A stretch of DNA of 64,000 bases. Origin: an uncultured bacterium. Its GTDB lineage: Bacteria; Patescibacteriota; Saccharimonadia; Saccharimonadales; OFTM59. This document shows positions 44,452 to 62,810 of this stretch, in pieces; position 1 is the first letter of the stretch; every line of letters begins with the position of its first letter. The stretch lies in contig CBKXXB010000001.1 of the NCBI GenBank assembly GCA_966685145.1, forward strand, positions 633-64,632, given 5' to 3'. The notes beneath the pieces were generated by a model. It was not told the origin of the DNA. It saw nothing but the letters and a program-made list of their open reading frames with translations, and searched no databases. The position numbers and the translations under genes are program-made.

Positions 44452-44973
44452 ATGAGACGTCCGATTGCTATGATTGCGGCAGCTGGGATTTCTCTTGGAG
44501 CAGCAACGCCACTTGCTGACGGAGAAAGAGTGCTGGGTGGCCCTGCAGAAGCCGAGCCAACGGTTGAGCTGCTTTACAGAGAGGTTCAGCAAGACATCTT
44601 GCCGCGCCTTGGGACCGCAGGCCTAAAATTAGTAGAGCTGGTGCGCGATGATACTATTGGCCATGTAGCGCTCTTGCTAACATTTGATTCTTATTGCGGT
44701 ACGCAATTTTCATTCGAGACGGACGACTATACTCCCGAGCGTGATGCATCTGTAGGCTTTACGCTATACGGTCGATTAGCAGATCTACAGGACAGGTCCA
44801 AGATAAACGGCCATGCTATGTGGGACGGAACCATCGGACACGGCGATAATGTGGCGCATACTCCTTTTATATACCAGCCAGGCAACAATGAAAATGCAGA
44901 TCAGGTGGTAGAGCACATGAGGCATAACTCAGCCTTAGCCTGCGCTCAATTTCCGGACACCCCCAACCTTTAA
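44452..44973 (+). CDS. Hypothetical secreted protein (ORFan)
   Basis: 173 aa with a signal-peptide-like N-terminus (IAMIAAAGISLGAATPLA). No motif. Confidence 0.45.
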   Translation: MRRPIAMIAAAGISLGAATPLADGERVLGGPAEAEPTVELLYREVQQDILPRLGTAGLKLVELVRDDTIGHVALLLTFDSYCGTQFSFETDDYTPERDASVGFTLYGRLADLQDRSKINGHAMWDGTIGHGDNVAHTPFIYQPGNNENADQVVEHMRHNSALACAQFPDTPNL

Positions 44974-45018
44974 TCCTTACTAGTATTATGTACGTTTTTA
45001 TGTTATAATAGCGCTCCT

Positions 45019-46194
45019 ATGGATTTTGGAGCTTTTGAGCGCAATGTGTATGAACTGGCTGCCAATCTACGGGCAACACCAGTCGGCGAGAGCATTGATG
45101 ATTATCAAAAGTACCTGGGTCATCAGATAGCCCAGGCTATCAACACGAACCGCGATGAGCTTAGGGCCGAGTATCGGCTTGAGCCCAGCACAGATCTTGT
45201 CGACCGCCTGCAGCAACGGCTTGGAACCATTGCCGTACAATCCGATGAGGACACACGCGAGGGTTTGAGCGCTCTGGAGTGGGCACTAAGAGAAGATATC
45301 GAACATCGTCGTAAAATTGCCGAGTGGCTTGTGTCGGTCATCCCGAAAATGGAAAAGACGCAGACAAATTACCGGCGCGTAATTAAGTCTCTTCTTAATA
45401 AGCACGATCTTGTATATACAGAAGATGACATGCAGACAGCTGAAGAGGTTATGAACCCGCCCCGCCACGCTCACCTTGAGAGGGAAATAAAGAAAACGAG
45501 CGTTGACGAACTCGAAGACTATGAGTTAACCATAGTAGCTGAGGGGTTACTTAAAATCCTGGCCAAATTTGCACGACAAGGGCAACGGGTAAGGCAAGTT
45601 GACATGTATTCTCAACCAGACTTTATAAAGGTCGTGAGGTTAGTGAGCCCGGATGTGCCCGTTCGTCAAGCGCTTCACACAGCTTGGGGCATACTTACGG
45701 CATTCTTTGAGGACGAAGACCCTGACTACCAGCTATTCTCTGTAGAGGGCAAAGGTTTCAGCGGCAACTATATACTCAACGATCCGGATCTTGTCGAGGG
45801 AATCTGGGGCACAGAAGACGACACCGCCGAACAGCAGCCTGCAGATGCCGAGGAAGAGACCGAACGCGTCCGTCCATACCAAGGCCGCATAGTACGCATC
45901 ACCCGCAATAAATTGATACTGGATTCCGGTGATTACATACCACTCGAAGACGATGTACAGAGAGCAGCCGCACAACGGCTTTTAGACCGTGGGGCAGACT
46001 TTATCAGCACTGGCAGGCTCAGCCAGGAGATTTCAGAAGAGCTTCGTCAACCGCGCAGCGCCGTTGAGGAAAAGGCCCGCGAACTATTAAAATCGCTTGG
46101 GCCTAATTATCTCGAACGTCGCCTGAACCGCAAGAAAAACAAGGCTCTAGTTCGAATTCGTCCTAATGCCCGCGGTGTCATCCAGCCGAGATAG
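45019..46194 (+). CDS. Hypothetical protein (391 aa, ORFan)
   Basis: Long ORF with no assignable motif. It is convergent with the next gene, with only 1 nt between the two stop codons. Confidence 0.45.
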   Translation: MDFGAFERNVYELAANLRATPVGESIDDYQKYLGHQIAQAINTNRDELRAEYRLEPSTDLVDRLQQRLGTIAVQSDEDTREGLSALEWALREDIEHRRKIAEWLVSVIPKMEKTQTNYRRVIKSLLNKHDLVYTEDDMQTAEEVMNPPRHAHLEREIKKTSVDELEDYELTIVAEGLLKILAKFARQGQRVRQVDMYSQPDFIKVVRLVSPDVPVRQALHTAWGILTAFFEDEDPDYQLFSVEGKGFSGNYILNDPDLVEGIWGTEDDTAEQQPADAEEETERVRPYQGRIVRITRNKLILDSGDYIPLEDDVQRAAAQRLLDRGADFISTGRLSQEISEELRQPRSAVEEKARELLKSLGPNYLERRLNRKKNKALVRIRPNARGVIQPR

Positions 46195-46195
46195 A

Positions 46196-47140
46196 TTAGT
46201 CAGACAACTCGTACACGTCGGTGCCGAGAAAGAGATCTTCTCTTTCAGCTATATCAATGGCCCAGTTCCACAGCCTATTAATGGCCGATGTCCCGTTAAG
46301 CTTTGCCATGGCCGGGCAGCCCTGAGTTTCGAATGTTACGGCCGCTGACCCTACTGTCCTTGCTGAAGACGTGGATGGTGATTGTATTTGTACGATGGGC
46401 TGTTTGAAATCAACATACTCAGTACCGTCGCCTCTGGTTCTTAATTGAAGTGCTTGGACGTCTATAACAAACTGGGGGTCCAATGTCTCGCCGGCTAACT
46501 GCATCAATAATCCCGCAGCAGGCAGATGCTGGACATTTACAGCAGCCGCACGATTGATAAGAATGCTGCTTTGCCTGGCTATCTTAGCTATATCTTGCGA
46601 TTCAGCAGCCGGCAATTCGTTATTTGTGCGGTGGTTTCTTACAATACGGCTTACAGCCCGCAGAGCAGTTGTGGTTTCCTTTGCTGCAGTGCCTATACCT
46701 GATCGGATTAATTTTTCGGGTGACTCGTACCTGGCTCCTTCATAAGTTGAATTAAACACACTACAGACGTAACCCAGCCTTTGGTGTAGCGGAGTGGCTT
46801 CTTCTTCGTGCTTAGTAAGTACTTTTGCTGTCGCTGCACCTAGGGTAGGTCTGAGGAATTCATCCAATTCATAAAAGTCCCGCAGAGATGCCACGCGCTC
46901 CTCGCCCCAGTCAATGAGCCCGTAAGGCGGGAACTCCTGCTTGCCTTCAAGAGCCACGTCTAAAACCTCGTCTATAACGACTGCCAGTAAAGCGTATAAT
47001 TCAGGCCGCATTTCTTTGGCTCTGGCTACATTTTCCTGAAGATTCACTTCTTCGGGCATTAGGCCAATGTCGGGGACAGGCTCTATCAATGCTGGATCGG
47101 CTTTGTAGTCTTTAGCCATACTGACATAGGACGCACTCAT
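46196..47140 (-). CDS. Hypothetical protein (314 aa, ORFan)
   Basis: Long ORF with no assignable motif. Confidence 0.45.
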   Translation of the reverse strand: MSASYVSMAKDYKADPALIEPVPDIGLMPEEVNLQENVARAKEMRPELYALLAVVIDEVLDVALEGKQEFPPYGLIDWGEERVASLRDFYELDEFLRPTLGAATAKVLTKHEEEATPLHQRLGYVCSVFNSTYEGARYESPEKLIRSGIGTAAKETTTALRAVSRIVRNHRTNNELPAAESQDIAKIARQSSILINRAAAVNVQHLPAAGLLMQLAGETLDPQFVIDVQALQLRTRGDGTEYVDFKQPIVQIQSPSTSSARTVGSAAVTFETQGCPAMAKLNGTSAINRLWNWAIDIAEREDLFLGTDVYELSD

Positions 47141-47205
47141 AATTCAATATTCTACCACTTTTATATACTTTTAGCAAGTTTGTCGTCAAAGAGGATGAAG
47201 ATGAT

Positions 47206-47448
47206 GTGCCGGAAATTTGCCTCACGGTATCACACCCTGCAGTCGAAAGAGAGCACCGGATATATGATGACCGCGGCAAGGTTGTTAGCCGCCTAGTTCT
47301 TCAGGAACTATACGAGGCTCTCACCATAATTGTGACGTATGCGAACTCAGAGAGTGCCGGCAACATTCCACCCATAGATAGCAGCGACTTCCCCATTCCT
47401 GTTATTGACGCAGAGTTTCAAGCGTTGGCTTTGCGGCTCCAAAGTTAA
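47206..47448 (+). CDS. Small hypothetical protein (80 aa)
   Basis: Short ORF in the gap between two minus-strand genes. Coding status uncertain. Confidence 0.3.
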   Translation: MPEICLTVSHPAVEREHRIYDDRGKVVSRLVLQELYEALTIIVTYANSESAGNIPPIDSSDFPIPVIDAEFQALALRLQS

Positions 47449-47463
47449 ACGATTAGTTTGATA

Positions 47464-47976
47464 TCACGAAGTTTCCACAGCTACAGTTGGGTCTTTATCT
47501 AAGCTCACATAGTAAGCCGCGTCGCCATAAACTTCATACTCCAACCTAAGATATTCCTTATCCTCCGTTACGTCGGTACTGAACACTATGGGAGCACGGT
47601 CATCATTGGGTGGTACGATAACCGCCAGCTCATCGAACACGAGCTGATGTAACGGCGGCAATGAGAGCTCGGTTGCTTCATCATCGACCGCACTAGCTCT
47701 TATTCGCGTGTATGGTAATGGTTGAGCATTTGTAAAAGGATTTCTATAAACAAATACTATACCTCTTGTTGGTCGGAAAACTCCATCGTATCTAACCCTC
47801 CCGCCACTACGTCTAAGGTCAGGATTAGCCGCGACCTGATCAATGACATGTTGGGATAAGGTCACAAACGCACCAAGGGCTCTTGCTGTTTCTCTGTAAT
47901 GAGCGTAAATACCCGGGTCGGTATCAGGAGTTAGCAAGCGCCCCGGTGAGTAAGGTATAGGCTCTAGAGATCTCAT
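47464..47976 (-). CDS. Hypothetical protein (170 aa, ORFan)
   Basis: ORF with no motif. Part of a same-strand run of ORFans. Confidence 0.4.
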   Translation of the reverse strand: MRSLEPIPYSPGRLLTPDTDPGIYAHYRETARALGAFVTLSQHVIDQVAANPDLRRSGGRVRYDGVFRPTRGIVFVYRNPFTNAQPLPYTRIRASAVDDEATELSLPPLHQLVFDELAVIVPPNDDRAPIVFSTDVTEDKEYLRLEYEVYGDAAYYVSLDKDPTVAVETS

Positions 47977-48013
47977 TCGTAATTACTCCGCTTGGATTAT
48001 TTGCACTTACTGA

Positions 48014-48457
48014 TTAGGATGATGGGCCCAATATTTCAAGGCGCACGGTCCATTGATCACGGCCCCATTGGTTGTTTTGGTCTTGTGTAGTTTCGATGGC
48101 AGTATCATATCTGTCCCTGCCAGCAGCTTCGGCTACGACTTGCATAGCTGCTAGTGAACCTACTGCCCATGACTCATTCATAACTGTCCATGTGACGCTA
48201 GGTACCGTTGCTTCACGGTGACATCCAAGCAACACGCCGCCTATTTTCCGACCTTTAGCTTGCATGAATTCAGGTACAACAGCCCTGGCATAATCCAGTG
48301 CCGCCTCCGGATCAATGACGCCAACAGTTCCGCGTAACTGCGCAGCGGCCTCGGTTACTCTTTCGGCGTCCAAGGTTGCTGCTGCTTCGGGATAATCTTC
48401 AGAAGTAGGCCTCACCGGAAGCTTGGACCTAACTATAGGATCATTCATCAGACTCAT
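48014..48457 (-). CDS. Hypothetical protein (147 aa, ORFan)
   Basis: ORF with no motif. Confidence 0.4.
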   Translation of the reverse strand: MSLMNDPIVRSKLPVRPTSEDYPEAAATLDAERVTEAAAQLRGTVGVIDPEAALDYARAVVPEFMQAKGRKIGGVLLGCHREATVPSVTWTVMNESWAVGSLAAMQVVAEAAGRDRYDTAIETTQDQNNQWGRDQWTVRLEILGPSS

Positions 48458-48594
48458 AGTATCCCCTGTTTCTCCATACAGGTATACGCTTTAATCCTTA
48501 GTCAAGCAAGCATAAGTAGCTTCGGTTTTTTAGCCACTGTCGAGTAGGGTCGATTAAAATGTGCACATTACCGAGTTATGATAAGAAACTGTGA

Positions 48595-49434
48595 TTAACT
48601 GTGCAACGCAGAAGCTGCGCGGTCGTACAGTGGCTGCGATAAGACCGGATAAGGAATTGTAGCTCCGTGCGCAGCCGGTTCGCGCAAACTTCGACCCTCT
48701 ACGCGGGGAGTATAAGCCCCATAACCTGCACCAATAAAAGCAATGTCGCCTAGGATGCCCGCGGAATTACAGGCAGCTTCTTTACGCCTGTTATAGTCAA
48801 GAGGCGGATCGCTAGGATCAAATTCACTATCTACGACAGACATGTCCATCGCCTGGCAATATTCAACGCCAGCATCTCGTATCATGGTCTCTGGTTCTTG
48901 CGAAATTGCTCCGATTGCAGCAGTAATCCTTAAATCTTGTGTAAGGAACATTCTGGTGACAGAACCGGATGAATTGCCCACTACCGGCGCAGAACGGACA
49001 TCCGAGTCCTTCGCTACATATGTCATAGCAATGACGGCATCCGGACTAGGCATTGATAACCTGATCTGCTTGGTTACTCCATTGACTGTAGTAGTTATTG
49101 GTTCACTCTCTGCGAGTAATGTCATCAGTTTAAAGCCTATGTTGTGTTGCAGAGCCGCAACTCTAGAATCAGCGCCTCCCAGAATACCTATCCAAGTACC
49201 TTCAGTTGTTTGTCTGTAGCCTGATTCCCTCAGTGATTGTCTTAACTGTTCATTCGCTTCGGCATCATTAGTGGGAGCAGAAGCATTAGGTGCTTGCCAG
49301 GTAGTGGTAGGTCTTGATTCTACTTCAGGGGTTTCGCCCCCGCCACAGCCAGCAAGGACTCCTGTCATCAAAGTCGCCGCGACAAATTTTCTTCCTCTCA
49401 TATACGCTCTTTTTACCCTTATCGACTTGGACAT
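48595..49434 (-). CDS. Putative lipoprotein (279 aa, ORFan)
   Basis: N-terminal basic stretch and hydrophobic segment ending LAGCGGG, a lipobox-like L-A-G-C. Confidence 0.5.
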   Translation of the reverse strand: MSKSIRVKRAYMRGRKFVAATLMTGVLAGCGGGETPEVESRPTTTWQAPNASAPTNDAEANEQLRQSLRESGYRQTTEGTWIGILGGADSRVAALQHNIGFKLMTLLAESEPITTTVNGVTKQIRLSMPSPDAVIAMTYVAKDSDVRSAPVVGNSSGSVTRMFLTQDLRITAAIGAISQEPETMIRDAGVEYCQAMDMSVVDSEFDPSDPPLDYNRRKEAACNSAGILGDIAFIGAGYGAYTPRVEGRSLREPAAHGATIPYPVLSQPLYDRAASALHS

Positions 49435-49472: not shown

Positions 49473-50747
49473 CTATGTAGCATTTATGTTTAAGCTCGCT
49501 TGATGAGTACCTTGAGCTTCGATTTCCTTGGTGTACTGTGCGATACGTGCACCTATTTCCCTGTCAAAATATTCAAAACCTGGCTGCAGGGCAGCTGCGT
49601 ATGCCAGCTTGTCGACTTTAGATACAGGACCAGACTTTCCCTTACCGAAGGGATGAACGATGAAGTAACGCTCCATTATGTTGCCGTAGGTCGTGATAAG
49701 GCGTGTGCCTAGACGCTGGCGCGAACCGACAGTTATTACACACTTTTCCGCTCGCTCCATCCCCAAGTGTCGTGGGGAAACCAAAACCACATGCGGACTG
49801 TACTGAGCATACATGCCTTGGTCCACGTAGTTTTTAACCTGAACTGGAATAATTTCATTTCTGCCAGGGATCATAGAACATAGCAGAATATCCGCACGAA
49901 AGCTTGGTTCTGAAGGATCGCGTAATCGGCCCCGCTCGAAGTCATCTGGAGCGGCAATAGGAAGATACGGCAGGTTCCGGGCCATCACCCATTCCTGTAA
50001 GACCAAGAGTGCCTCTGCTTCGGTTATTGCTGAGCACAAAAGGCCTAAGTGATCGCCCCATTCGTCGGCATGGTGCATCCAATTTGGCGTGTGCCTATCA
50101 TGAGGACGAGTTACCTTTACGCGCATATCTACTACATCCTCCAACTGCAGCTTCCCGGTCGAGTCATAATCGTTTTCAATGGCAATTACGCCGCGGTAAC
50201 CATTTAGCGCGTTGCCCAATATGCGTCGCTCATTCGTTGTGACGTCTTTTATTTCTCTTGCGACTTTCTCATCAGTAAGCGGCCCCTTTGCCGCTCGTCG
50301 ATTAATTTTGCTAATGGCTGAATTGACGAGTTTCCATGAATAGCCGACAAGATTAAAGTGAATAGTGTTTTTATCAATTTCTGAAATGTCGGACAGGGCT
50401 TTTTCCGGCAGTGTATGCGTCTCATCAACAGGACGCCTTGGTAGAGACCTAGCGCCGGGCGGCGGCATCGAGCTTCGTAGGTTAGCAGTCTCTTGCCTAT
50501 GGTTATGTCGGAACCGCCTCACCGATTCCGCCATATCAAGCAGCGCTCCATCTGCCGTAACAACGACTGGAGAAGGCGGACGGTCTGCCAAACTGTCGAT
50601 GTGGCCGTCAAGATATAGGGCCACAACCATATCTGCCAGACCGTTATTTATAACTTCATTAACCTTTTGCTGCGCAATCATTTCTTCGACTGTGTAGTCT
50701 GGGTGCTCAGGCAGTCTAAAGGCTGATACGTACTCATGTCCGTCCAT
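49473..50747 (-). CDS. Hypothetical protein (424 aa, ORFan) with a His/Asp-rich segment
   Basis: Largest ORF of the block, with no family assignable. It contains HDRHTPNWMHHADEWGDH, a possible metal-binding patch. Confidence 0.5.
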   Translation of the reverse strand: MDGHEYVSAFRLPEHPDYTVEEMIAQQKVNEVINNGLADMVVALYLDGHIDSLADRPPSPVVVTADGALLDMAESVRRFRHNHRQETANLRSSMPPPGARSLPRRPVDETHTLPEKALSDISEIDKNTIHFNLVGYSWKLVNSAISKINRRAAKGPLTDEKVAREIKDVTTNERRILGNALNGYRGVIAIENDYDSTGKLQLEDVVDMRVKVTRPHDRHTPNWMHHADEWGDHLGLLCSAITEAEALLVLQEWVMARNLPYLPIAAPDDFERGRLRDPSEPSFRADILLCSMIPGRNEIIPVQVKNYVDQGMYAQYSPHVVLVSPRHLGMERAEKCVITVGSRQRLGTRLITTYGNIMERYFIVHPFGKGKSGPVSKVDKLAYAAALQPGFEYFDREIGARIAQYTKEIEAQGTHQASLNINAT

Positions 50748-50868: not shown

Positions 50869-51003
50869 CTAAATTTTGAAGAGGCCCTTGATGGCACGTT
50901 TGCGTGCAGTTGTTAGTTTTCGCTTGCCTTTTGTAACCGGAGAATACTTTTGCTTAATGGCCCTCTTTACAGCGCCTTTCTTAGAATACTTGAATAGTCC
51001 CAT
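50869..51003 (-). CDS. Basic micro-protein (44 aa) downstream of the E1-like gene
   Basis: Not in the ORF track. Translation MGLFKYSKKGAVKRAIKQKYSPVTKGKRKLTTARKRAIKGLFKI, about one third Lys/Arg. A strong SD (AGGAGGGG) lies 5 nt upstream of the ATG. Confidence 0.4.
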   Translation of the reverse strand: MGLFKYSKKGAVKRAIKQKYSPVTKGKRKLTTARKRAIKGLFKI

Positions 51004-51062: not shown

Positions 51063-51872
51063 TTAGGTTAGCCATTTGTGACAATAGGGGCAAGGAGCAG
51101 TGTCTTTTTTGCTACTCCTAAGCGAGTTTAGGTCAGCCCTGTAAACCAGATGTTTGGCTGGAGCCGCCAAGCCGGTTATGAGTTTCACGGCTTCAGTAAT
51201 GGCCAAGGAGGCAACTGCACCGTTTAGACTAACTACCGAAGGACCACTCTTTTTTAAATCCTTAGCATCAACTCCGTAGATTTTGGCCTGTGTTTCTAGC
51301 TCAGCATTATTCATCCGATGAACCCTTATGTCCTGTTGGCTTAGCTCATCAAGGCAATACAAACAGCCAAGGCTGGTACCGGCAATTACTACACGACCAC
51401 CGTACGCAGCAGGTAAGTTTTCATCAGTTTGTACATCAGTTGCTACATCTATATACACTTTCCTTAACTCAGCAGCAGTTTGAGTTGCAAGTAACCGGGC
51501 ATAATCATTGTCTAATCCGCCCATGATTACATCCACGTCTGCTAATGTGGCTCGTAAATCGATGTCTTGTAAATAGTTATCAACTGTGGCAACGTCAGCT
51601 TTTGGTTGGATATTATGAATCAGACGTGCCGCAACTTCTACCTTCAGCCGCCCGATGTCTTCGGCTGTTGCACCGACCAAGCGGTTGAGATTTTTATTCT
51701 CTACTTTATCTCCATCGACCAATATAAATGTGCGAGCACCGAGATAGGCGAATTGCTGCGCAAAATGAGATCCAAGCCCGCCTAGGCCAAGTAGCGCAAA
51801 CTTTGTGCGTTCGATTTTCTTTTGGCCTTTTTTGCCGAAGAGTTCAGTTTGTCGAATATAACGGTCACTCAT
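51063..51872 (-). CDS. ThiF/MoeB-family E1-like adenylyltransferase
   Basis: Likely start MSDRYIRQTELFG at 51872. An alternative ATG at 51932 would overlap the JAB gene. Nucleotide-binding motif LLGLGGLGSHFAQQFAYLG. Two CxxC pairs (GCLYC, CPYC) consistent with the structural zinc site of MoeB/ThiF-type E1s. No other cysteine. The ATG overlaps the JAB stop region (ATGAGTGA). Confidence 0.75.
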   Translation of the reverse strand: MSDRYIRQTELFGKKGQKKIERTKFALLGLGGLGSHFAQQFAYLGARTFILVDGDKVENKNLNRLVGATAEDIGRLKVEVAARLIHNIQPKADVATVDNYLQDIDLRATLADVDVIMGGLDNDYARLLATQTAAELRKVYIDVATDVQTDENLPAAYGGRVVIAGTSLGCLYCLDELSQQDIRVHRMNNAELETQAKIYGVDAKDLKKSGPSVVSLNGAVASLAITEAVKLITGLAAPAKHLVYRADLNSLRSSKKDTAPCPYCHKWLT

Positions 51873-52374
51873 ATGCACCTTTTTGGATAGCGGACAGGCT
51901 GAGACCTGTTGGCCGAGTCGAATTGTCTTCAACGCGCAAACCAGAAAGCGTCTCCGGCTTATCCACTATGTGCCAGACGAGTGCGTCAAAGTCGTTTTCA
52001 GTAAAAACTAGCGCAACATATGGCCGACCTTTAAGCCGCCAGAGCATATGAGGAACCAACTCGGCTAGCCCGTCCATATCTGTCAGACTAAACTGAGCAG
52101 ACCATCCAAATCCATTATGAGCGTGCGCTTCGATCACCACGTAATTATTGGCATGCGCGTGTTTAATAATTTCAGGCCGCACATGATCTGCTAAGCCGAG
52201 ACCATTCCAGTTATGATGCGCGTAATCCTTTTCAGTCAGAAGCTTAACTTCCTTGACCATAAGCCTTTGCCCTGAGTCATCCATCAACGCAAACAAGAAG
52301 GCAATTTCCTCCGATTGACTAGCCAGGTAATCCTTCATCACTCTATAATCAGCGCGGGGAATCTGTAGGTCCAT
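51865..52374 (-). CDS. JAB/MPN (JAMM) metallopeptidase
   Basis: 169 aa. Upstream Glu (SEEIAFLFAL), then IEAHAHNGFGWSAQFSLTD. The ExnHxHx7-10Sx2-5D arrangement is characteristic of JAMM isopeptidases. Its start is 1 nt after the E2-like gene's stop. Confidence 0.7.
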   Translation of the reverse strand: MDLQIPRADYRVMKDYLASQSEEIAFLFALMDDSGQRLMVKEVKLLTEKDYAHHNWNGLGLADHVRPEIIKHAHANNYVVIEAHAHNGFGWSAQFSLTDMDGLAELVPHMLWRLKGRPYVALVFTENDFDALVWHIVDKPETLSGLRVEDNSTRPTGLSLSAIQKGAYE

Positions 52375-52375
52375 A

Positions 52376-52762
52376 CTAATTAATCTCCGCTAAACGATGT
52401 TTGAATGAGTGGGCAAAATGGAGCATACCCATGCCCTCACCCGGCACGCTACCGGGTTGCCAGTTTTCTAACTCCCAAGAAAATTTAAGCCACTGTCCAT
52501 CTCTGGGAACATCGCTGGAATACTCACTATTGCTTGGTTTATCACCGTTTGCCAGCTGCAAACCATCCCGTACCCAAAATGCATATGGCCTTTCTCCCGG
52601 AAAACCTGCCGGGATCTGAAATGCAATCTCGGCAGACTGCCGCCCCCAACCTATCGGCAGCAGGTAATTCTTGATGATTATCCAGTTCCCTTCCGCAACA
52701 TGCACAAGGTCTGGCCAGCGACTCCTGAGTGTCGCCAGTGAATGCTCAATCCACTCTTGCAT
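52376..52762 (-). CDS. E2/UEV-like (UBC-fold-like) protein lacking cysteine
   Basis: 128 aa. IAFQIPAGFPGERPYAFWV resembles the UBC/UEV 'FxIxFPxxYPxxPPxVxF' beta-hairpin signature. The protein has no Cys at all. It lies 5 nt downstream of the Ubl gene and abuts the JAB gene. Confidence 0.45.
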   Translation of the reverse strand: MQEWIEHSLATLRSRWPDLVHVAEGNWIIIKNYLLPIGWGRQSAEIAFQIPAGFPGERPYAFWVRDGLQLANGDKPSNSEYSSDVPRDGQWLKFSWELENWQPGSVPGEGMGMLHFAHSFKHRLAEIN

Positions 52763-52767
52763 AGCAG

Positions 52768-53016
52768 CTAGCCCCGCTTAAAGCCAATCTTTCGACTGAA
52801 ACCGTTCCCGGGCTTTACATCTACGGCTTCATTCTCGCGTAGCTCCCGCTCACTATTGTCCTTGAAGTCAATGATGAGTATTGGCTGATTATCGGTTATA
52901 CCAACTAACGTGCGAATTTCCGGCGGCGTAATTGTATCCTTATGCCAGTCATAATCTGTGCCTTCAAAGTTAATAGTATGCTTTGGCTTTTTCTCGTTAT
53001 TCTTCTCATTACCCAT
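52768..53016 (-). CDS. Small ubiquitin-like (beta-grasp, multiubiquitin-domain-like) protein with C-terminal Gly
   Basis: 82 aa: MGNEKNNEKKPKHTINFEGTDYDWHKDTITPPEIRTLVGITDNQPILIIDFKDNSERELRENEAVDVKPGNGFSRKIGFKRG. It ends ...KRG followed directly by the stop codon, so a terminal Gly is available for adenylation. Strong SD (AAGAGGAGAG) 6 nt upstream. It is the first gene of a four-gene block with E2-like, JAB and E1-like partners. Confidence 0.5.
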   Translation of the reverse strand: MGNEKNNEKKPKHTINFEGTDYDWHKDTITPPEIRTLVGITDNQPILIIDFKDNSERELRENEAVDVKPGNGFSRKIGFKRG

Positions 53017-53095
53017 TCTAACTCTCCTCTTTTATTAGATGTTTTTGCTTTCCTCACACCTGGCCTCGGTGCGCCTCAAGACAATTTAATAGTAG

Positions 53096-53109
53096 CGCTA
53101 CATGTAGCG
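53096..53109. promoter_or_regulatory. Perfect 14-bp palindrome in the leader of the Ubl operon
   Basis: CGCTACATGTAGCG reads identically on both strands. It lies about 80 bp upstream of the Ubl start codon in a 424-bp non-coding spacer. Confidence 0.3.
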
Positions 53110-53397
53110 TTTAGCAATAGCATTTAGGCACAATATGTAGTTTTATTTGCAATGACTTTTGCCAGTTTCCAACTACTTTCCACCGCTTTTGAATGGTTGG
53201 ATTCATTCGTCCAGGCACTGATAAGTCCTGATGAGTGAATGTCAAAAGCACAATTGATAGCGGAGGATTTGTTTGAGTCCGAAGGACGAGTTGTCCGAAG
53301 CATTGTGGCTTCTGCCGGTGAAATCATAAAGAGCCGGCAGTCGCCTGTCGTTTCTTTGGATGCTTTCTTTGTCAATACAAGAAAGTATCTTGCGCCA

Positions 53398-53430
53398 GCA
53401 ATGAAACGGCGGCAATGAAACGGCGGCAAT
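53398..53430. repeat. Tandem direct repeat (14-bp unit, about 2.4 copies)
   Basis: GCAATGAAACGGCG GCAATGAAACGGCG GCAAT, read directly from the sequence. It sits at the distal end of the Ubl-operon leader, directly downstream of the 90-aa acidic ORF. Confidence 0.6.
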
Positions 53431-53440
53431 ACTATTACCT

Positions 53441-53736: not shown

Positions 53737-53809
53737 TGCCCCTGGCAGGATTCGAACCCGCGACCAACTCCTGCGAAGGAGACGCTCTAATCCGCTGAGC
53801 TACAGGGGC
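53737..53809 (-). tRNA. tRNA gene (isotype uncertain; anticodon arm irregular)
   Basis: Minus-strand sequence GCCCCTGTAGCTCAGCGGATTAGAGCGTCTCCTTCGCAGGAGTTGGTCGCGGGTTCGAATCCTGCCAGGGGCA. The 7-bp acceptor stem (GCCCCTG/CAGGGGC), D arm (GCTC...GAGC) and T arm (GCGGG-TTCGAAT-CCTGC) are canonical. No CCA is encoded. The anticodon arm folds only as a 4-bp stem with a 6-nt loop (TCTCC/TTCGCA/GGAGT), or as a 7-nt loop TTCGCAG (anticodon CGC) with a poorly paired stem. Confidence 0.6.
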
Positions 53810-53909: not shown

Positions 53910-55142
53910 ATGACCGGTGGAAATGTGGAATTACCTTTCGGCGGTGAAATGGAGCCGACCGATTCAGCAGCACCATTATTGCAGGGTGTCGCCTTTGATG
54001 TAATACGAGTTCCTGAACGTCAGGATGCAATAGACGATATTCTCTCCCATCGACGCTGGAGCCCCGAGCGTCGCGTCAAAGAACTGAATACCAAAATCAA
54101 TGACGAATGGGACGACGAGCTGGGTATATCTTACACAGGAATTGAAGGCGAGGAGTTACCAGGCCTTACCATCCATGGCGTAGCCGAAAAGCTGGCATTG
54201 TCAGCTTGCGATGTGACAGATGGGAACTTCGAGGGTGCCAACTTAAACGCCGCCGTGATGACTGCCGTTGCTTTCCGCAGACTGCGAGCCCGCCATGCCA
54301 ATATGGATCATACCGTTTCTCCCCTGTCTTCTTTTGAAGGTGCTGATCTGGAAGACGTCACAGCCATCGAAGGTAATTTTGTCTTCGGAGACCTTAGTGA
54401 CGTCAAGGCGCGCGGTCTGACACTCACGAGCGGTTATCTATTCGGTACGAAAGGTTTGGAAAGAATCATCGAAGATGTGGCCGATATCCGTACTGCCCGG
54501 GTACTGCTGCAGGCAGCCGGCGTCACTGATCCATCCGAAACTCTGAGGGAAGCCTTGGCTGATCGCTTTATGGGCGTACCTGCCGCCCACATAGAGCGAC
54601 AGGTATCCCCTGTCCGCGTCATTCGGCAGGTTAACGCAGCCAACACCTTGCCCGACGAAAAGCGATTGGCTGGCGCAGTGCTTGATGACGTCATCCTAGC
54701 CGGGGCAGGTTTGCACGCCCGGATTATGACCGGCAGCATCTGGCACAAGGTACGGGCACGCGGTTTGGAATTCAGGGGCTCACGGGCAGCCGGATCAGTC
54801 GTACTTGATTCAGACTTGCAGAACATTGATGCAACCGGTCTATGGGTACCTGGCATGTTCGCAGCTAACACGAGCTTCAGGAACAGCGACATGACACGCG
54901 GCAACATGGCTGGTGCTGTTTTTTATAACTGCGATATGACGAATGTCGATACCGAGCGGACGAATGTCGATGGTATCGTCGTCATTGGAGGCCGACCGCC
55001 AGAGTTTGATGAAGAAACCATGAAGCGACTAAAGATTCTCGAGCTTGGCGACCTCCCTACCGCAGTTGCAGAGATAGTCTCGCGTATGGGCGCTTTGTCA
55101 ATTAGCGGACGCTCTACGGCTAACCGCGAGCTCGAACAATAG
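53910..55142 (+). CDS. Pentapeptide-repeat protein
   Basis: 410 aa. Multiple A(D/N)LxX-type pentapeptide units (GANLNAAVMTAV..., FEGADLEDVTAIEGNFVFGDLSDV..., FRNSDMTRGNMAGAVFYNCDMTNVD). Confidence 0.65.
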   Translation: MTGGNVELPFGGEMEPTDSAAPLLQGVAFDVIRVPERQDAIDDILSHRRWSPERRVKELNTKINDEWDDELGISYTGIEGEELPGLTIHGVAEKLALSACDVTDGNFEGANLNAAVMTAVAFRRLRARHANMDHTVSPLSSFEGADLEDVTAIEGNFVFGDLSDVKARGLTLTSGYLFGTKGLERIIEDVADIRTARVLLQAAGVTDPSETLREALADRFMGVPAAHIERQVSPVRVIRQVNAANTLPDEKRLAGAVLDDVILAGAGLHARIMTGSIWHKVRARGLEFRGSRAAGSVVLDSDLQNIDATGLWVPGMFAANTSFRNSDMTRGNMAGAVFYNCDMTNVDTERTNVDGIVVIGGRPPEFDEETMKRLKILELGDLPTAVAEIVSRMGALSISGRSTANRELEQ

Positions 55143-55161
55143 TTGCTCGAGAAGGATTTTT

Positions 55162-55794
55162 ATGCGTGAGCCGCTGTTTACACCCCGCAATCAGCCAGCA
55201 CGCGGTTTAATTATTGAAGGTGATCCTGAGTCGCGCCAAAAAGCACGCCTGTCCGCGGCTCTGCACCGCGCCATAAACCTCGCAATTGAAAGCGCATTTA
55301 GATATGGCGTTGATTTGCCTGTCGGTGCTGTAGCGCTGCAGAGTGAGGAAATTATAGGGCGAGGATTTGCTGGTGATATGCGATTCGGGCAACCACCGCT
55401 TCATGCCGAAATCATGGCACTACTGGACACACGATTTGATGTACAAGGAGGCAAGCCGGATACTGTGGTCGTGTCGACCGAGCCCTGCGTAAGATGCCAG
55501 GATAATCTGGCAGGAGAATCAAGTCTGAAACGTGTAGCGTTTGGTCTTAGTCGCAAGGATTTATCGGACAAAGGATTAATCAGACCCCATGGCGAAGACA
55601 TATTTGAGAGAGCAGAACGAGTCGGACTGCCATATGAGATTACAAGAATTGAAGACAACGACCTAAGGCTTGCGGGACTTACTATCTTTGATCATGTCAC
55701 CCGCGATCCCGGCACAGGGCTTGTAGAGGTTAATTCCGAAACTCTTAACGAGGCTCTTATGAGCTTAAATGAACATGGCCCTTCCGGCTCCTGA
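55162..55794 (+). CDS. CDA-fold zinc deaminase, TadA-like (tRNA adenosine deaminase family) with N- and C-terminal extensions
   Basis: 210 aa. VGAVALQSEEIIGRGFA ... PLHAEIMAL ... TEPCVRCQDNL ... RVAFG. The HAE and PCxxC zinc motifs closely resemble TadA. It carries extra N-terminal (about 40 aa) and C-terminal (about 60 aa) sequence. Confidence 0.65.
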   Translation: MREPLFTPRNQPARGLIIEGDPESRQKARLSAALHRAINLAIESAFRYGVDLPVGAVALQSEEIIGRGFAGDMRFGQPPLHAEIMALLDTRFDVQGGKPDTVVVSTEPCVRCQDNLAGESSLKRVAFGLSRKDLSDKGLIRPHGEDIFERAERVGLPYEITRIEDNDLRLAGLTIFDHVTRDPGTGLVEVNSETLNEALMSLNEHGPSGS

Positions 55795-60719: not shown

Positions 60720-61493
60720 GTGAGCACAGAGAACACCCCCTCTACACCCGGCAAGCGATTCAATGTATCGCTTGATTATCGTTTCGTGATTGGACTGTTG
60801 CTAGCTGTTATCGCCGTCATGCTTATCATCTGGAAGCCATGGGCAACTGCAAAATTGGACGATAGCCGCACCATTGAGGTAACAGGCGAGGCTACACTTA
60901 AAGCAGAACCGGACGAATATATGTTCACGCCAGCGTACGAATTTAAAAACGCTGATCAGGAGGTAGCGCTGGCTGCCCTGACCAAAAAGAGTGAGGAAGT
61001 TATCGCAGGATTAAAAAATCTCGGAGTAGCAGATAATAAAATCAAGACAAACTCCACCGGCAATAACTTTTACCCCTACTACTATGACGAAGGCACCAAG
61101 ACCAATAACTATACTCTACAGATAACCGCCACCGTAGATAACCGTGAGCTGGCACAAAAAGTACAGGATTATTTGCTCACTACAACACCGACGGGTGCCG
61201 TTTCACCGCAGTTCACCTTTAGCGATGCCAAGCAAAAAGAGCTTGAGAGCAGAGCCCGTGACGAAGCGACTAAGGATGCCCGCGCCAAAGCCGAACAATC
61301 AGCCAATAACCTGGGCTTTAAGTTAGGTAAGGTCAAGGCCGTAACCGATGGTGCGGGCTTCGGACCTATACATCCGGGCTTTAGCCGCGGTGCTGAAGCA
61401 ACTACTATGATAGCCGAGGATCAAAAGCTGGCAGTACAGCCAGGTGAAAACGAACTTAGCTACTCAGTAACAGTCACTTATTATTTGCGCTAG
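60720..61493 (+). CDS. SIMPL-domain (DUF541) protein, membrane-anchored
   Basis: 257 aa. N-terminal TM, then RTIEVTGEATLKAEPD, a typical SIMPL start, and a C-terminal beta-rich region. Confidence 0.55.
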   Translation: MSTENTPSTPGKRFNVSLDYRFVIGLLLAVIAVMLIIWKPWATAKLDDSRTIEVTGEATLKAEPDEYMFTPAYEFKNADQEVALAALTKKSEEVIAGLKNLGVADNKIKTNSTGNNFYPYYYDEGTKTNNYTLQITATVDNRELAQKVQDYLLTTTPTGAVSPQFTFSDAKQKELESRARDEATKDARAKAEQSANNLGFKLGKVKAVTDGAGFGPIHPGFSRGAEATTMIAEDQKLAVQPGENELSYSVTVTYYLR

Positions 61494-62646
61494 CAGCTAA
61501 TGCGGTTTGCGGCCTGGAGCGTGCTCGTTTTAACTTGATCTCTTCCCACGGCAAACTCGGCTTGCCGAAGTGACCATAGGCTGCGGTCTGCAAATATATA
61601 GGCCGTCTGAGATTAAGCTGTTCAACTATACCTTGTACCGAAACGTCCAGCAGCGAGTCAGCAAAGCGCTGGATTCGTTCCGACGAGACTTTCTCTGTTC
61701 CGAAGGTATCTATGCCGAAATGAACCGGCCGTTTAGCGCCGATATAATAAGCAAGACTGACTTCCGCTCTTTTAGCTAGACTGTTCGCCACTATGTTCTT
61801 CGCCAAGTACCTTGCAGCATAGGCACCTGAGCGGTCGACTTTGCTTGGATCTTTTCCGCTAAACGCACCGCCGCCGACACGGGCATAGCCACCATAAGTA
61901 TCAACCACAATCTTGCGTCCGGTCAGACCGGCATCGGCCGCCGGTCCTGGATGATGCCAGACACCGGTACCGTTAACAACCAAGTCCTGCCTGGTTATGC
62001 TGAAGCCATAGTCATTCAGGACGGGCGCAACGATGCAGTTAAATATATCTTCTCTTACCCGCTCCAAACTAATCTTTTCATGGTGCGGAACCGCGAGGGT
62101 GACATGCTCGACGGCCACAGGCGCGTCGTTTTCATAGCGCACAACCACCTGGGCTTTGCCGTCCGGGCGTAAATGCGGCAACTTACCACCCTCCCGAGCC
62201 TCATCAATTGAACGGGTTAACCGATGAGCCAGGACAATCGGCAACGGCAGAAGCTCCGGTGTTTCATCGCAAGCATAACCGAACATTAGCCCCTGATCCC
62301 CGGCACCGAAGTCATCTACACCAACTGATATCTCGGGCGATTGTTCATGCACATAACACTCGATCGGCGAAGCATCACTGAAACCCCAGTCCGGCTCGAC
62401 ATAGCCAAGCCGCCTGATTTGCTTACGGGCAATGGACACGAAATCTACCTTTGCCTTGGTCTTAACTTCGCCGGCCAAAATCAGCCTGTTGTTGCAGGCC
62501 AGCGTTTCGACAGCAACTCGCCCAAGCGGATCATCCGCCAGCACCGCGTCAACTATAGCGTCACTGATAGCATCGCAAACTTTGTCCGGATGGCCGGCAC
62601 AGACGCTTTCGGAGGCGAACCTCCTTACCTTGTTTTGATGGGACAT
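61474..62646 (-). CDS. metK: S-adenosylmethionine synthase
   Basis: 390 aa. ESVCAGHPDKVCD, GAGDQGLMFGYA, and the C-terminal GGGAFSGKDPSKVDRSGAY glycine loop. Confidence 0.95.
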   Translation of the reverse strand: MSHQNKVRRFASESVCAGHPDKVCDAISDAIVDAVLADDPLGRVAVETLACNNRLILAGEVKTKAKVDFVSIARKQIRRLGYVEPDWGFSDASPIECYVHEQSPEISVGVDDFGAGDQGLMFGYACDETPELLPLPIVLAHRLTRSIDEAREGGKLPHLRPDGKAQVVVRYENDAPVAVEHVTLAVPHHEKISLERVREDIFNCIVAPVLNDYGFSITRQDLVVNGTGVWHHPGPAADAGLTGRKIVVDTYGGYARVGGGAFSGKDPSKVDRSGAYAARYLAKNIVANSLAKRAEVSLAYYIGAKRPVHFGIDTFGTEKVSSERIQRFADSLLDVSVQGIVEQLNLRRPIYLQTAAYGHFGKPSLPWEEIKLKRARSRPQTALAASANNK

Positions 62647-62810
62647 AAAAATATCCTTTCTGCCATGTCAGACGAGAAAGGACTGGTTCACGAATTTCTC
62701 CGCAAAAACATCTTCCCCGCTACTGGCGGGCTAGATGGAGCACCTTACAGAATCTGTAGGTTGCCGGCAGGTCGTCAAGCTAGATCTCTCGCTGCGCTCT
62801 TTATACTTTT
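62647..62810 (-). promoter_or_regulatory. Candidate SAM-I (S-box) riboswitch with terminator / RBS-sequestering hairpin in the metK leader
   Basis: The minus-strand leader reads ...UAUAAAGAGCGCAGCGAGAGAUCUAGCUUGACGACCUGCCGGCAACCUACAGAUUCUGUAAGGUGCUCCAUCUAGCCCGCCAGUAGCGGGGAAGAUG... It parallels S-box conserved blocks: AAGAG, GAGGGA-like, GAyGA, GGCAACC, AAGGUGCU..UCC, a P4-like hairpin, and GAAGAUG. A hairpin UCCUUUCU(n13)AGAAAGGA follows. Its 3' arm contains the SD, and it is followed by UAUUUUU and the AUG. Confidence 0.4.

What the first reader, a model, noticed from the sequence alone, without database searches (positions are those of the whole stretch)
51063..53016. Compact four-gene ubiquitin-like conjugation module: Ubl, E2/UEV-like, JAB/MPN and ThiF/E1-like
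Four minus-strand genes are packed with 1-5 nt spacers or overlaps, so they are almost certainly one transcription/translation unit.

(1) An 82-aa protein whose ORF ends ...GFKRG directly before the stop codon. A free C-terminal Gly is what an E1 adenylates. Its pattern is reminiscent of beta-grasp 'multiubiquitin'-type domains.

(2) A 128-aa protein with the UBC/UEV-like hairpin signature IAFQIPAGFPGERPYAFWV.

(3) A JAMM/MPN metallopeptidase (E...HAH...S..D).

(4) A ThiF/MoeB-type adenylase with GLGGLGS and a CxxC/CxxC zinc site.

This gene quartet is the architecture of prokaryotic Ub-like conjugation operons. Some of these have been linked to antiphage defence in recent literature. Here it sits in a tRNA-adjacent block of ORFans in what looks like a reduced genome. 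Such an organism would not be expected to carry elaborate protein-conjugation machinery.
Basis: partly seen in the sequence, partly recalled or inferred. Interest (0 to 1): 0.85.

Follow-up and report, generated by a model that had tools for sequence, protein, structure and literature searches.

The report
Cysteine-free bacterial ubiquitin-like conjugation operon
Four tightly packed genes encode a bacterial ubiquitin-like tagging system related to the recently described cysteine-free "Bub" pathway, in a stripped-down form that lacks that pathway's extra protease and gene fusions.

Summary
Four minus-strand genes (window 51063-53016) encode a single-domain Ubl ending in Arg-Gly, a cysteine-free E2, a JAMM peptidase and a minimal ThiF-type E1. 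They are separated by 5 nt and 1 nt, and the last two overlap by 8 nt.

All four have their closest solved relatives in the Citrobacter Bub system. This is the "6e"/DUF6527 class predicted in 2006 and shown in 2024-26 to conjugate through Tyr and Ser oxyesters instead of thioesters. The E1 keeps the invariant crossover-loop Tyr (Y199). Its only cysteines are the four zinc ligands. The E2 keeps the invariant Ser (S95).

The cassette fits neither published Bub type. Nothing is fused and there is no BubE/DUF6527 protease. The E2 has Tyr60 in place of the Type I Asp, and it lacks the Type I His.

Ten related loci share this architecture. Nine of them also carry an adjacent HTH + M78 peptidase regulator pair, which the window lacks. 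The Asp/His E2s form a separate clade.

The host is an uncultured bacterium. Its own contigs and those of its relatives reach about 0.9-1.2 Mb.

I rate it a new variant of a known kind, of moderate interest. The oxyester chemistry and a defence role are inferred, not shown.

The parts
52768..53016 (-). Ubl gene. It encodes an 82-aa single beta-grasp (multiubiquitin-type) protein with a Lys-rich disordered N-terminal tail and a free C-terminal Arg81-Gly82.
   Evidence: The ORF and the stop codon directly after Gly are read from the sequence. Pfam Multi_ubiq scores 21.6 bits, below the 24.5 gathering score, but 9 of 12 homologues match with best E 3e-7. R81-G82 is invariant and terminal in all standalone homologues. 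In Ubl-E2 fusions it sits exactly at the domain junction. The AF2 model has pLDDT 83.3 with a beta-beta-alpha-beta-beta-beta order. Its top nine PDB matches are bacterial multi-ubiquitin proteins, including BubA(155-229) at rmsd 2.1 A.
52376..52762 (-). E2-like gene. It encodes a 128-aa Prok-E2_E family protein with no cysteine. The predicted acceptor is Ser95 in the FSW motif. Tyr60 (PYxF) stands where Type I Bub has Asp, and Glu97 where Type I Bub has His.
   Evidence: Pfam PF14462 scores 28.8 bits against a gathering score of 25. Matches to PDB Citrobacter BubB have E 0.0015 for the single sequence and 4.9e-7 for the family profile. The register against BubB S333 was set using relatives with FSWH...WNP.
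51865..52374 (-). JAB/JAMM zinc metallopeptidase gene (169 aa), with an intact E22, H84-x-H86, S96-x-x-D99 active site.
   Evidence: These residues are invariant in 9- and 60-sequence alignments at about 30% identity. Seven of nine homologues match Pfam Prok-JAB weakly, although the window protein itself has no Pfam hit. The AF2 model has pLDDT 94.7. The Foldseek top hit is Citrobacter BubCD 9ea4 at E 2.5e-10 and TM 0.75, followed by PfJAMM1, Rpn11 and Cap3.
51063..51872 (-). E1 gene. It encodes a 269-aa single-domain ThiF/MoeB-type adenylyltransferase with the GxGGxG nucleotide loop, an NR motif and an invariant crossover-loop Tyr199 (IYGV). Its only four cysteines are the CxxC...CxxC zinc ligands.
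   Evidence: Pfam ThiF scores 135.8 bits. Invariant residues come from a nine-sequence alignment. The family profile matches BubCD at E 2.8e-25 and places Y199 on BubCD chain residue 372, which is native Y370. The cysteine count is read from the translation. The ATG start overlaps the JAB stop by 8 nt.
53017..53440 (-). A 424-nt non-coding leader upstream of the Ubl gene, presumably holding the promoter. It contains a perfect 14-nt palindrome CGCTACATGTAGCG (53096-53109) about 80 nt before the start codon, which may be an operator.
   Evidence: The sequence is and the palindrome. Only weak sigma-70-like matches were found, no more than expected from shuffles. Assigning this region to the module is inference.

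Best explanation
This is a complete, probably functional ubiquitin-like protein-conjugation operon of the 6e/Bub lineage. It is in a minimal, unfused form without BubE.

Proposed mechanism:
1. The E1, presumably a ThiF-like homodimer stabilised by a Cys4 zinc site, adenylates the exposed C-terminal Gly82 of the Ubl.
2. Tyr199 in the E1 crossover loop attacks the adenylate and forms a Ubl~Tyr oxyester.
3. The Ubl passes to Ser95 of the cysteine-free E2 as a Ubl~Ser oxyester.
4. The Ubl is then transferred to lysines of target proteins.
5. The JAMM peptidase is translationally coupled to the E1 and likely docked on it. It removes the Ubl from targets. In relatives where Ubl and E2 are fused, it would also cut the two apart.

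By analogy with relatives that sit in defence islands or mobile elements under HTH + M78-peptidase regulators (the domain pair of the DNA-damage-responsive CapH/CapP regulators), the likely role is a response to phage or stress. In this window no such regulator is present.

What is shown here: the gene structure, the four folds and families, the conservation of catalytic residues, and the conserved four-gene architecture.

What is inferred: the oxyester chemistry (from Citrobacter and E. coli Bub biochemistry), the peptidase's role, and the biological function.
For: **Family and fold of all four proteins.** The closest solved relative of each is a component of Citrobacter Bub.

**Thioester chemistry is hard to sustain.** The E2 has no cysteine. 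The E1 has only the four zinc-site cysteines (translations).

**Bub catalytic residues are kept.**
- E1 Y199 is invariant in nine homologues and aligns with BubCD Y370.
- E2 S95 is invariant or nearly so in alignments not selected on that motif.
- S95 corresponds to BubB S333 once the register is fixed with FSWH...WNP relatives.

**Adenylation and JAMM residues are intact**.

**The Ubl ends in invariant Arg-Gly.** This dipeptide sits at the junction in fused relatives.

**Published biochemistry.** Cysteine-free Bub E1 and E2 do conjugate. Y370F and S333A/H335A abolish conjugation (10.1101/2024.11.21.623953).

**Conserved architecture.** The same Ubl(-)E2, JAB, E1 cassette occurs in ten independent loci:
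- L007-L011 and L013-L015.
- L019, a Ca. Tenderia plasmid.
- L101, a metagenome contig encoding a JAB protein that NCBI lists for Nitrospira moscoviensis.

**Regulators and context in relatives.**
- Seven of these loci carry both an HTH and a Peptidase_M78 domain next to the cassette.
- L008 has an HTH plus an unannotated 295-aa protein.
- L014 has an M78 plus an unannotated protein.
- L019 is annotated only as hypothetical proteins.
- Nearby genes include type I R-M, integrases, recombinases, transposases and a Cap17-like gene.
Against: No biochemistry exists for this subfamily.

The residues thought to activate the E2 serine in published Bub are absent. Those are Asp+His in Type I and Lys+His in Type II. 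Here position 60 is Tyr and position 97 is Glu in the window and variable across the family. The E2 could therefore be slower, use a different nucleophile, or be non-catalytic.

The window E2 is the only one of 218 with Gly at position 112, where 197 have Asn.

Bub itself has not been shown to protect against phage.

The window lacks the HTH/M78 regulators found in relatives. It shows no compositional sign of being a mobile island, and no integrase domain (Pfam or NCBIfam) in the ORFs scanned between 44.4 and 56.8 kb. A defence role in this host is therefore only an analogy.

PADLOC recognises only the E1, and only generically.
Confidence: 0.72

Rival explanations
1. The E2-like protein is a catalytically dead UEV/RWD-like adaptor, as Iyer et al. 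proposed for 6e in 2006. On this view the module does not run an E1-to-E2-to-target relay. The E1 would modify targets directly from the adenylate or Tyr ester, or would only activate the Ubl for another fate. The E2 would serve as a scaffold or substrate receptor.
For: - The E2 has no cysteine.
- It lacks the Asp/His (Type I) or Lys/His (Type II) helpers described for active Bub E2s.
- The window protein uniquely lacks Asn112.
- The 2006 analysis called these domains inactive.
Against: - Ser95, Trp96, Tyr60, Trp91 and Trp101 are essentially invariant across about 200 sequences at 30-45% identity. This points to a conserved active site and not only a scaffold.
- The homologous Ser is catalytic in both published Bub types.
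Confidence: 0.15
2. The cassette is a decaying or silent remnant in this small genome. It is inherited but no longer regulated or used.
For: - No HTH/M78 regulator is present, unlike nine of the ten relatives.
- The E2 carries an unusual Asn112Gly change.
- The nearest E2 relative is only 44% identical.
- The surrounding genes are ORFans.
Against: - All four ORFs are intact and keep every catalytic residue.
- The junctions remain tight, including an 8-nt JAB/E1 overlap.
- Identical proteins are found in at least six independent assemblies.
- A 99%-identical strain carries the cassette on a 926-kb contig.
- Small genomes tend to lose unused genes quickly (general knowledge).
Confidence: 0.08
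3. The module is a classical thioester system (Bil-type or Cap2/Cap3-type), or a ThiS/MoaD sulfur-carrier pathway.
For: - The gene order Ubl-E2-JAB-E1 is the same as BilABCD.
- The E1 gives generic PADLOC E1-E2 and BilD hits and NCBIfam ThiF/MoeB hits, all far below their cutoffs.
Against: - **Bil:** it needs catalytic cysteines in the E2 and in a CYS domain of a two-domain E1. Here the E2 has no cysteine and the E1 is a single 269-aa domain.
- **CBASS:** no CD-NTase is present and there is no E2-E1 fusion.
- **Sulfur carrier:** no MoaE, ThiG, ThiH or rhodanese was found among the neighbours scanned at 44.4-56.8 kb. The E2 and JAB partners argue against that pathway too.
Confidence: 0.03

Closest known systems
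Type I Bub operons (6e.1/DUF6527; Citrobacter BubAB-BubCD-BubE; Ye, Gong, Chambers & Corbett, bioRxiv 10.1101/2024.11.21.623953; PDB 9ea4, 9ea8, 9eae, 9eav)
   Same: - The same four domain families: multiubiquitin beta-grasp Ubl with a C-terminal Gly, cysteine-free Prok-E2_E E2 with an invariant Ser, JAMM peptidase, and ThiF-type E1 with an invariant crossover-loop Tyr and no catalytic Cys.
- The same domain order (Ubl, E2, JAB, E1).
- The closest solved structure or sequence for the Ubl, E2 and JAB; for the E1, BubCD ranks second, just behind MoeB.
- In relatives, the same CapH/CapP-type regulators.
   Different: - All four domains are separate genes here. Type I has Ubl-E2 and JAB-E1 fusions.
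- There is no BubE/DUF6527 serine protease here or in ten related loci.
- The E2 has Tyr60 where Type I has Asp299, and it lacks His335. The Asp/His sequences form a separate clade.
- The E1 keeps a Cys4 zinc site that Citrobacter BubCD lacks.
- The Ubl has one beta-grasp domain, against three in Citrobacter.
Type II Bub operons (6e.2; E. coli ZDHYS365 BubA-BubBD-BubE)
   Same: A separate Ubl gene. Cysteine-free E1 and E2 with a crossover-loop Tyr and an E2 Ser. Oxyester chemistry has been demonstrated.
   Different: In Type II the E2 is fused to the E1, there is usually no JAB, and BubE is present. Its E2 serine is accompanied by invariant Lys and His, which are not seen here.
The '6e' gene neighbourhood of Iyer, Burroughs & Aravind 2006 (Genome Biol 7:R60), and the Pfam families Multi_ubiq (PF14452) and Prok-E2_E (PF14462)
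   Same: The same protein families. The same prediction of an Ubl + cysteine-less E2-fold + JAB + E1 module, sporadically distributed across bacteria.
   Different: 6e was defined with a polyUbl, a JAB-E1 fusion and a fourth 'metal-binding protein Y'. The window has a solo Ubl, separate JAB and E1 genes, and no protein Y.
BilABCD (Type I/II Bil; Millman 2022, Chambers 2024, Hor 2024)
   Same: Four separate genes in the order Ubl-E2-JAB-E1. Bil has a proven antiphage role.
   Different: Bil uses Cys thioesters. Its E1 has IAD + AAD + CYS domains and its E2 belongs to a different family (CEHH and relatives). The window proteins have neither feature.

Membership tests
Bub / 6e lineage (broad sense) | E2-fold protein of the Prok-E2_E family that lacks a catalytic Cys and carries an invariant Ser at the catalytic position | tested here: met
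   PF14462 scores 28.8 bits against a gathering score of 25. The family profile matches BubB at E 4.9e-7. The E2 has no Cys. S95 is conserved and is matched to BubB S333 through FSWH...WNP relatives. Structural equivalence was not checked on a model.
Bub / 6e lineage (broad sense) | ThiF-type E1 without a crossover-loop Cys but with an invariant crossover-loop Tyr | tested here: met
   Y199 is invariant in nine homologues. No Cys lies between the two CxxC pairs. The profile alignment places Y199 on BubCD Y370.
Bub / 6e lineage (broad sense) | Multiubiquitin-type beta-grasp Ubl with a C-terminal Gly available for adenylation | tested here: met
Bub / 6e lineage (broad sense) | Conjugation through Ubl~Tyr and Ubl~Ser oxyester intermediates | not testable with these tools
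   This needs biochemistry. It is inferred from residue conservation and the absence of free cysteines.
Bub as catalogued (Type I and Type II) | BubE (DUF6527/PF20137 serine protease) encoded in the operon; 'all Bub operons encode BubE' | tested here: not met
   No Pfam DUF6527 hit for any scanned ORF of at least 44 aa between 44.4 and 56.8 kb. None in ten related loci. Two plasmid loci with Asp/His-type E2s do carry DUF6527. The published catalogue was seeded on DUF6527 operons.
Type I Bub | Ubl-E2 fusion (BubAB) and JAB-E1 fusion (BubCD) | tested here: not met
   The window has four separate ORFs. Some relatives fuse Ubl to E2, but JAB and E1 are separate in all ten.
Type I Bub | Invariant Asp (D299) and His (H335) accompanying the E2 serine | tested here: not met
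   The window has Tyr60 and Glu97. Among 218 E2 relatives, 191 are Tyr/non-His and 24 are Asp/His. The Asp/His group is monophyletic and excludes the window.
Type II Bub | E2-E1 fusion (BubBD), no JAB, and invariant Lys + His near the E2 serine | tested here: not met
   The E2 and E1 are separate, with a JAB between them. No invariant Lys or His appears in the E2 alignment.
BilABCD | Catalytic Cys in the E2, and an E1 with IAD-AAD plus a mobile CYS domain | tested here: not met
   The E2 has no Cys. The E1 is a single 269-aa adenylation domain whose only Cys residues are zinc ligands. Only a weak PADLOC BilD hit on the adenylation core.
MoaD/ThiS sulfur-carrier pathways | ThiF/MoeB equivalog score, and MoaE/ThiG/ThiH/rhodanese partners nearby | tested here: not met
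   NCBIfam ThiF and MoeB equivalogs score 65-90 bits against cutoffs of 150-650. No such partners were found among the neighbours scanned at 44.4-56.8 kb.
JAB/JAMM metallopeptidases | E...HxH...SxxD zinc site on an MPN fold | tested here: met
   E22, H84, H86, S96 and D99 are invariant. The fold matches BubC, JAMM1, Rpn11 and Cap3.

The most novel reading that the evidence does not exclude
The cassette may represent an unrecognised third Bub type ('minimal Bub'), with four proposed properties:
- The E2 active site is built on an invariant Tyr60/Ser95 pair instead of Ser+His+Asp or Ser+Lys+His. Tyr may be a second oxyester acceptor or a general base.
- The JAMM peptidase has taken over the deconjugating role of the missing BubE.
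- The E1 keeps the ancestral zinc site.
- In this roughly 1-Mb-genome uncultured bacterium it has lost its DNA-damage regulators. It would then run constitutively, possibly as a housekeeping or host-interaction protein-tagging system and not as an inducible defence.
Probability: 0.3. Interest if true: 0.65.

Novelty: new variant of a known kind. Interest (0 to 1): 0.45.

Why it matters
Bub is the only known ubiquitin-type cascade that works without cysteines, and its biological role is still unknown.

This cassette and its several hundred metagenomic relatives would widen that picture in three ways:
- The published catalogue was seeded on DUF6527, so it misses a sizeable sister clade.
- BubE is dispensable for the core machinery.
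- The residues thought to activate the E2 serine are not universal, which gives a natural experiment on how an oxyester relay is made reactive.

The system is also convenient for biochemistry. It has four small unfused proteins and a Ubl that needs no processing. Homologues occur in tractable settings, such as a locus whose JAB protein NCBI lists for Nitrospira moscoviensis and a Ca. Tenderia plasmid.

Its presence in an apparently small genome is a curiosity. It hints that the module is either cheap to keep or useful beyond phage defence.

Tried and rejected
- **GTDB genome scan with the E1:** found only two distant ThiF loci at 25-26% identity. The host species is apparently not among the representatives, so it could not be named.
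- **Metagenome scan with the neighbouring pentapeptide-repeat protein:** found nothing.
- **Metagenome scan with RarA:**
  - Found relatives at 70-78% identity, two of them on 1.13-1.18 Mb contigs.
  - Synteny is too poor to show a clean insertion, and none carries the cassette within 10 kb.
  - In L023 the zincin-rarA interval is about 3 kb, against about 16 kb in the window. This is only a weak hint that the region is variable.
- **Attachment-site search:** no second copy of the tRNA 3' end was found in the window.
- **Composition:** the cassette is not anomalous in GC or GC3.
- **PADLOC:** no system-level hit.
- **NCBIfam:** only sub-threshold ThiF/MoeB hits.
- **Phage collection:** no E2 homologue.
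- **PDB search with the C-terminal half of the E1 alone:** only spurious GMP-synthetase hits. The full family profile was needed.
- **Profile alignment of the E2 family to BubB:**
  - It places the family's Ser-Trp on BubB S337-W338 and not on S333.
  - I judged this a register slip caused by a repeated 'SW'.
  - The reason is that Asp/His-type relatives read FSWH-xxx-WNP, against WSRH-xx-WNP in BubB.
  - This remains an inference.
- **tblastn of relatives' HTH and M78 proteins against the window:** no remnant found.
Full report
**1. The observation**

- Ubl: 52768-53016, 82 aa, ending GFKRG then stop.
- E2-like: 52376-52762, 128 aa.
- JAB: 51865-52374, 169 aa.
- E1: an ORF running 51063-51932 from a TTG.

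The E1 almost certainly starts at the ATG at 51872, giving 269 aa. That ATG is preceded by AAGGTG. Gene callers chose it in six independent assemblies that encode identical proteins.

The junctions are 5 nt, 1 nt and an 8-nt overlap. This fits one translationally coupled unit. Relatives show the same JAB/E1 overlap of 4-17 nt.

**2. What the four proteins are**

*Ubl*
- Pfam Multi_ubiq scores 21.6 bits, just under the 24.5 gathering score. Nine of 12 homologues match it, best E 3e-7.
- Every standalone homologue ends in Arg-Gly then stop. In Ubl-E2 fusions that Arg-Gly sits exactly at the domain boundary.
- An AF2 model (pLDDT 83.3, shallow alignment) has a beta-grasp strand and helix order.
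- Its nine best PDB matches are all bacterial multi-ubiquitin proteins. They include BubA(155-229) in complex with BubCD, at rmsd 2.1 A.

*E2*
- Pfam Prok-E2_E scores 28.8 bits against a gathering score of 25.
- The only significant PDB sequence match is Citrobacter BubB, at E 0.0015 for the single sequence and 4.9e-7 for the family profile.
- The protein contains no cysteine.

*JAB*
- The window protein has no Pfam hit. Seven of nine homologues match Prok-JAB weakly.
- E22, H84, H86, S96 and D99 are invariant across 60 sequences at about 30% identity.
- The AF2 model (pLDDT 94.7) matches the peptidase domain of Citrobacter BubCD best (E 2.5e-10, TM 0.75).
- The next matches are P. furiosus JAMM1, Rpn11, Cap3, BRCC36 and CSN5.

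*E1*
- Pfam ThiF scores 135.8 bits.
- A nine-sequence family profile matches MoeB (1.6e-26) and BubCD (2.8e-25) best.
- Nucleotide-binding and adenylation residues are conserved.
- The protein has exactly four cysteines, all in the CxxC...CxxC zinc site.

**3. Placement in the literature**

The combination of Ubl, Cys-less E2 fold, JAB and E1 is the '6e' neighbourhood of Iyer, Burroughs and Aravind (2006). They thought the E2 was inactive.

The Corbett laboratory renamed it Bub and worked out its chemistry.
- Type I is BubAB (Ubl-E2 fusion) + BubCD (JAB-E1 fusion) + BubE (DUF6527 serine protease).
- Type II is BubA + BubBD + BubE.
- The E1 uses a crossover-loop tyrosine (Y370 or Y342).
- The E2 uses a serine, helped by His+Asp in Type I or Lys+His in Type II.
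- Intermediates are therefore oxyesters.
- No phage protection has been shown.
- Many operons carry CapW, CapH+CapP or CapK+CapS regulators.
- The Bub catalogue was built from DUF6527-containing operons.

**4. Tests of the Bub features here**

*E1 tyrosine.* Y199 (IYGV) is invariant in nine homologues. There is no cysteine in the crossover loop. The profile alignment puts Y199 on BubCD chain residue 372, which is native Y370 after a two-residue tag offset.

*E2 serine.*
- S95-W96 is invariant or nearly so in alignments not chosen on that motif.
- The HMM alignment to BubB pairs it with S337-W338.
- Relatives of the Asp/His kind read PDxF...FSWH-xxx-WNP, and BubB reads LDMF...WSRH-xx-WNP.
- The natural register is therefore S95 = S333, position 97 = H335 and position 60 = D299.

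*Helper residues.*
- On that register the window has Tyr60 and Glu97.
- In a 218-sequence alignment the 60/97 pair is Tyr/non-His in 191, Asp/His in 24 and Tyr/His in 2.
- The 24 Asp/His sequences form one clade in a neighbour-joining tree, and the window lies outside it.
- In that set S95 and W91 are fixed by my selection pattern, so their invariance there carries no weight.
- The window E2 is also the only sequence with Gly at position 112, where 197 have Asn.

*BubE.*
- No scanned ORF of 44 aa or more between 44.4 and 56.8 kb matches DUF6527 or any other informative family.

**5. Related loci**

Ten independent loci carry the same cassette. It consists of a Ubl of 79-90 aa (or a Ubl-E2 fusion), an E2 of about 130 aa, a JAB of 170-181 aa and a ThiF of 270-295 aa. 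None has DUF6527.
- L007-L011 and L013-L015.
- L019, a mobilizable Ca. Tenderia electrophaga plasmid.
- L101, a metagenome contig whose JAB protein NCBI lists for Nitrospira moscoviensis.

Regulators next to the cassette:
- Seven loci carry both an HTH and a Peptidase_M78 domain, fused into one protein in two of them.
- L008 has an HTH plus an unannotated 295-aa protein.
- L014 has an M78 plus an unannotated protein, on the same strand as the cassette.
- L019 is annotated only as hypothetical proteins.

This is the CapH/CapP arrangement already linked to 6e systems.

Neighbouring genes include type I R-M, a DEAD/MZB helicase, integrases, recombinases, transposases, HerA plus a methylase, and a Cap17-like protein.

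By contrast, two plasmid loci with Asp/His-type E2s (Bradyrhizobium L018, Rhizobium L020) have a JAB-E1 fusion, a 'phosphotransferase' and a DUF6527 protein.

The Tyr-type E2 therefore travels with separate JAB and E1 genes and no BubE. The family is not rare. The E2 search gave 324 representative clusters, the profile search 409 E2 proteins, and the JAB search 505 proteins.

**6. The window's own context**

The window is chromosomal. It encodes UvrB, PheT, GatA, GatB and an ABC exporter, and MetK behind a SAM riboswitch.

The same proteins, or 99%-identical ones, occur on a 926-kb JGI contig. RarA relatives at 70-78% identity sit on 1.13 and 1.18 Mb contigs. A small genome is plausible, but the organism could not be named.

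Upstream of the Ubl gene lie, in order:
- a 424-nt leader;
- a 90-aa acidic ORF;
- a tRNA-like gene;
- divergent pentapeptide-repeat and deaminase genes.

Downstream lie a 44-aa basic ORF and seven ORFans.

There is no HTH/M78 regulator or remnant of one. No integrase domain was found in the ORFs scanned between 44.4 and 56.8 kb, and there is no repeat of the tRNA end. GC and GC3 are not anomalous: 0.470/0.454 for the cassette against 0.478±0.027/0.467±0.045 for the window. The closest E2 elsewhere is only 44% identical.

The cassette therefore looks like a long-resident, regulator-less copy and not a fresh island.

**7. Mechanism and verdict**

The best-supported reading is a working Ubl conjugation relay of the Bub kind.
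1. The E1 adenylates Gly82.
2. Tyr199 takes the Ubl as an oxyester.
3. Ser95 of the E2 receives it.
4. Target lysines are modified.
5. The JAMM peptidase reverses the modification. In fused relatives it also separates Ubl from E2.

The lack of any non-zinc cysteine in the E1 and E2 is read directly from the sequence. It makes thioester chemistry very unlikely. The rest of the chemistry is inferred from homology. A defence or stress role rests only on the contexts of relatives.

Rival readings cannot be excluded without experiments. They are a non-catalytic E2, or a silent remnant.

However, the system belongs to a lineage predicted in 2006 and characterised in 2024-26. It is best described as a new variant of a known kind (unfused, without BubE, with a Tyr-type E2). 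Interest is moderate.

Noticed in passing
window 53737-53809 (-): A tRNA-like gene (Rfam tRNA, 56 bits) has a 6-nt anticodon loop, UUCGCA, instead of the usual 7 nt. ARAGORN therefore cannot name an anticodon. The same sequence occurs in six independent assemblies, so it is not an assembly error. It lies 720 nt upstream of the Ubl gene. It could be a pseudo-tRNA, a relic attachment site or an unusual decoder.
   Followed up: partly
window 53096-53109: A perfect 14-nt palindrome, CGCTACATGTAGCG, lies about 80 nt upstream of the Ubl start codon, inside a 424-nt non-coding leader. It may be an operator for a regulator encoded elsewhere, since the HTH/M78 pair seen in relatives is missing here. 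By my estimate such a palindrome is expected about 0.03 times in a leader this long.
   Followed up: partly
window 53393-53420: A tandem duplication of a 14-nt unit (CGCCAGCAATGAAA / CGGCGGCAATGAAA) sits at the far end of the operon leader, next to two short inverted repeats (53307-53345 and 53359-53389).
   Followed up: no
window 50869-51003 (-): A 44-aa ORF very rich in Lys and Arg (MGLFKYSKKGAVKRAIKQKYSPVTKGKRKLTTARKRAIKGLFKI) lies 59 nt downstream of the E1 and has a strong GGAGG ribosome-binding site. It is called as a gene in the six assemblies of this locus shown. It has no Pfam hit and is not conserved next to the cassette in relatives. Whether it is linked to the Ubl system, for example as a lysine-rich substrate, is pure speculation.
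   Followed up: partly
window 49473-50747 (-) and 44452-49434: A run of seven ORFans has no Pfam, NCBIfam or PADLOC assignment. The 424-aa one ends with a D...QVK pattern reminiscent of PD-(D/E)xK nucleases and gives a very weak PADLOC PDC-M45A hit (E 0.012). The 279-aa one looks like a lipoprotein. None has a match in the loci of RarA relatives.
   Followed up: partly
window 62705-62809 (-): A SAM riboswitch (S-box, 50.7 bits) lies directly upstream of the metK gene (61474-62646).
   Followed up: no
window 53910-55794 (+): Divergent from the tRNA is a gene pair: a 410-aa pentapeptide-repeat protein followed by a 210-aa cytidine/deoxycytidylate-type deaminase (TadA-like, well below the equivalog cutoff). 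A metagenome scan found no relative of the pentapeptide protein.
   Followed up: partly
L018 (Bradyrhizobium plasmid) and L020 (Rhizobium plasmid): These are Bub-like operons with unfused Ubl and E2, a JAB-E1 fusion, a DUF6527 protein and an extra 'phosphotransferase' gene between the E1 and DUF6527. This architecture matches neither published Type I nor Type II.
   Followed up: no
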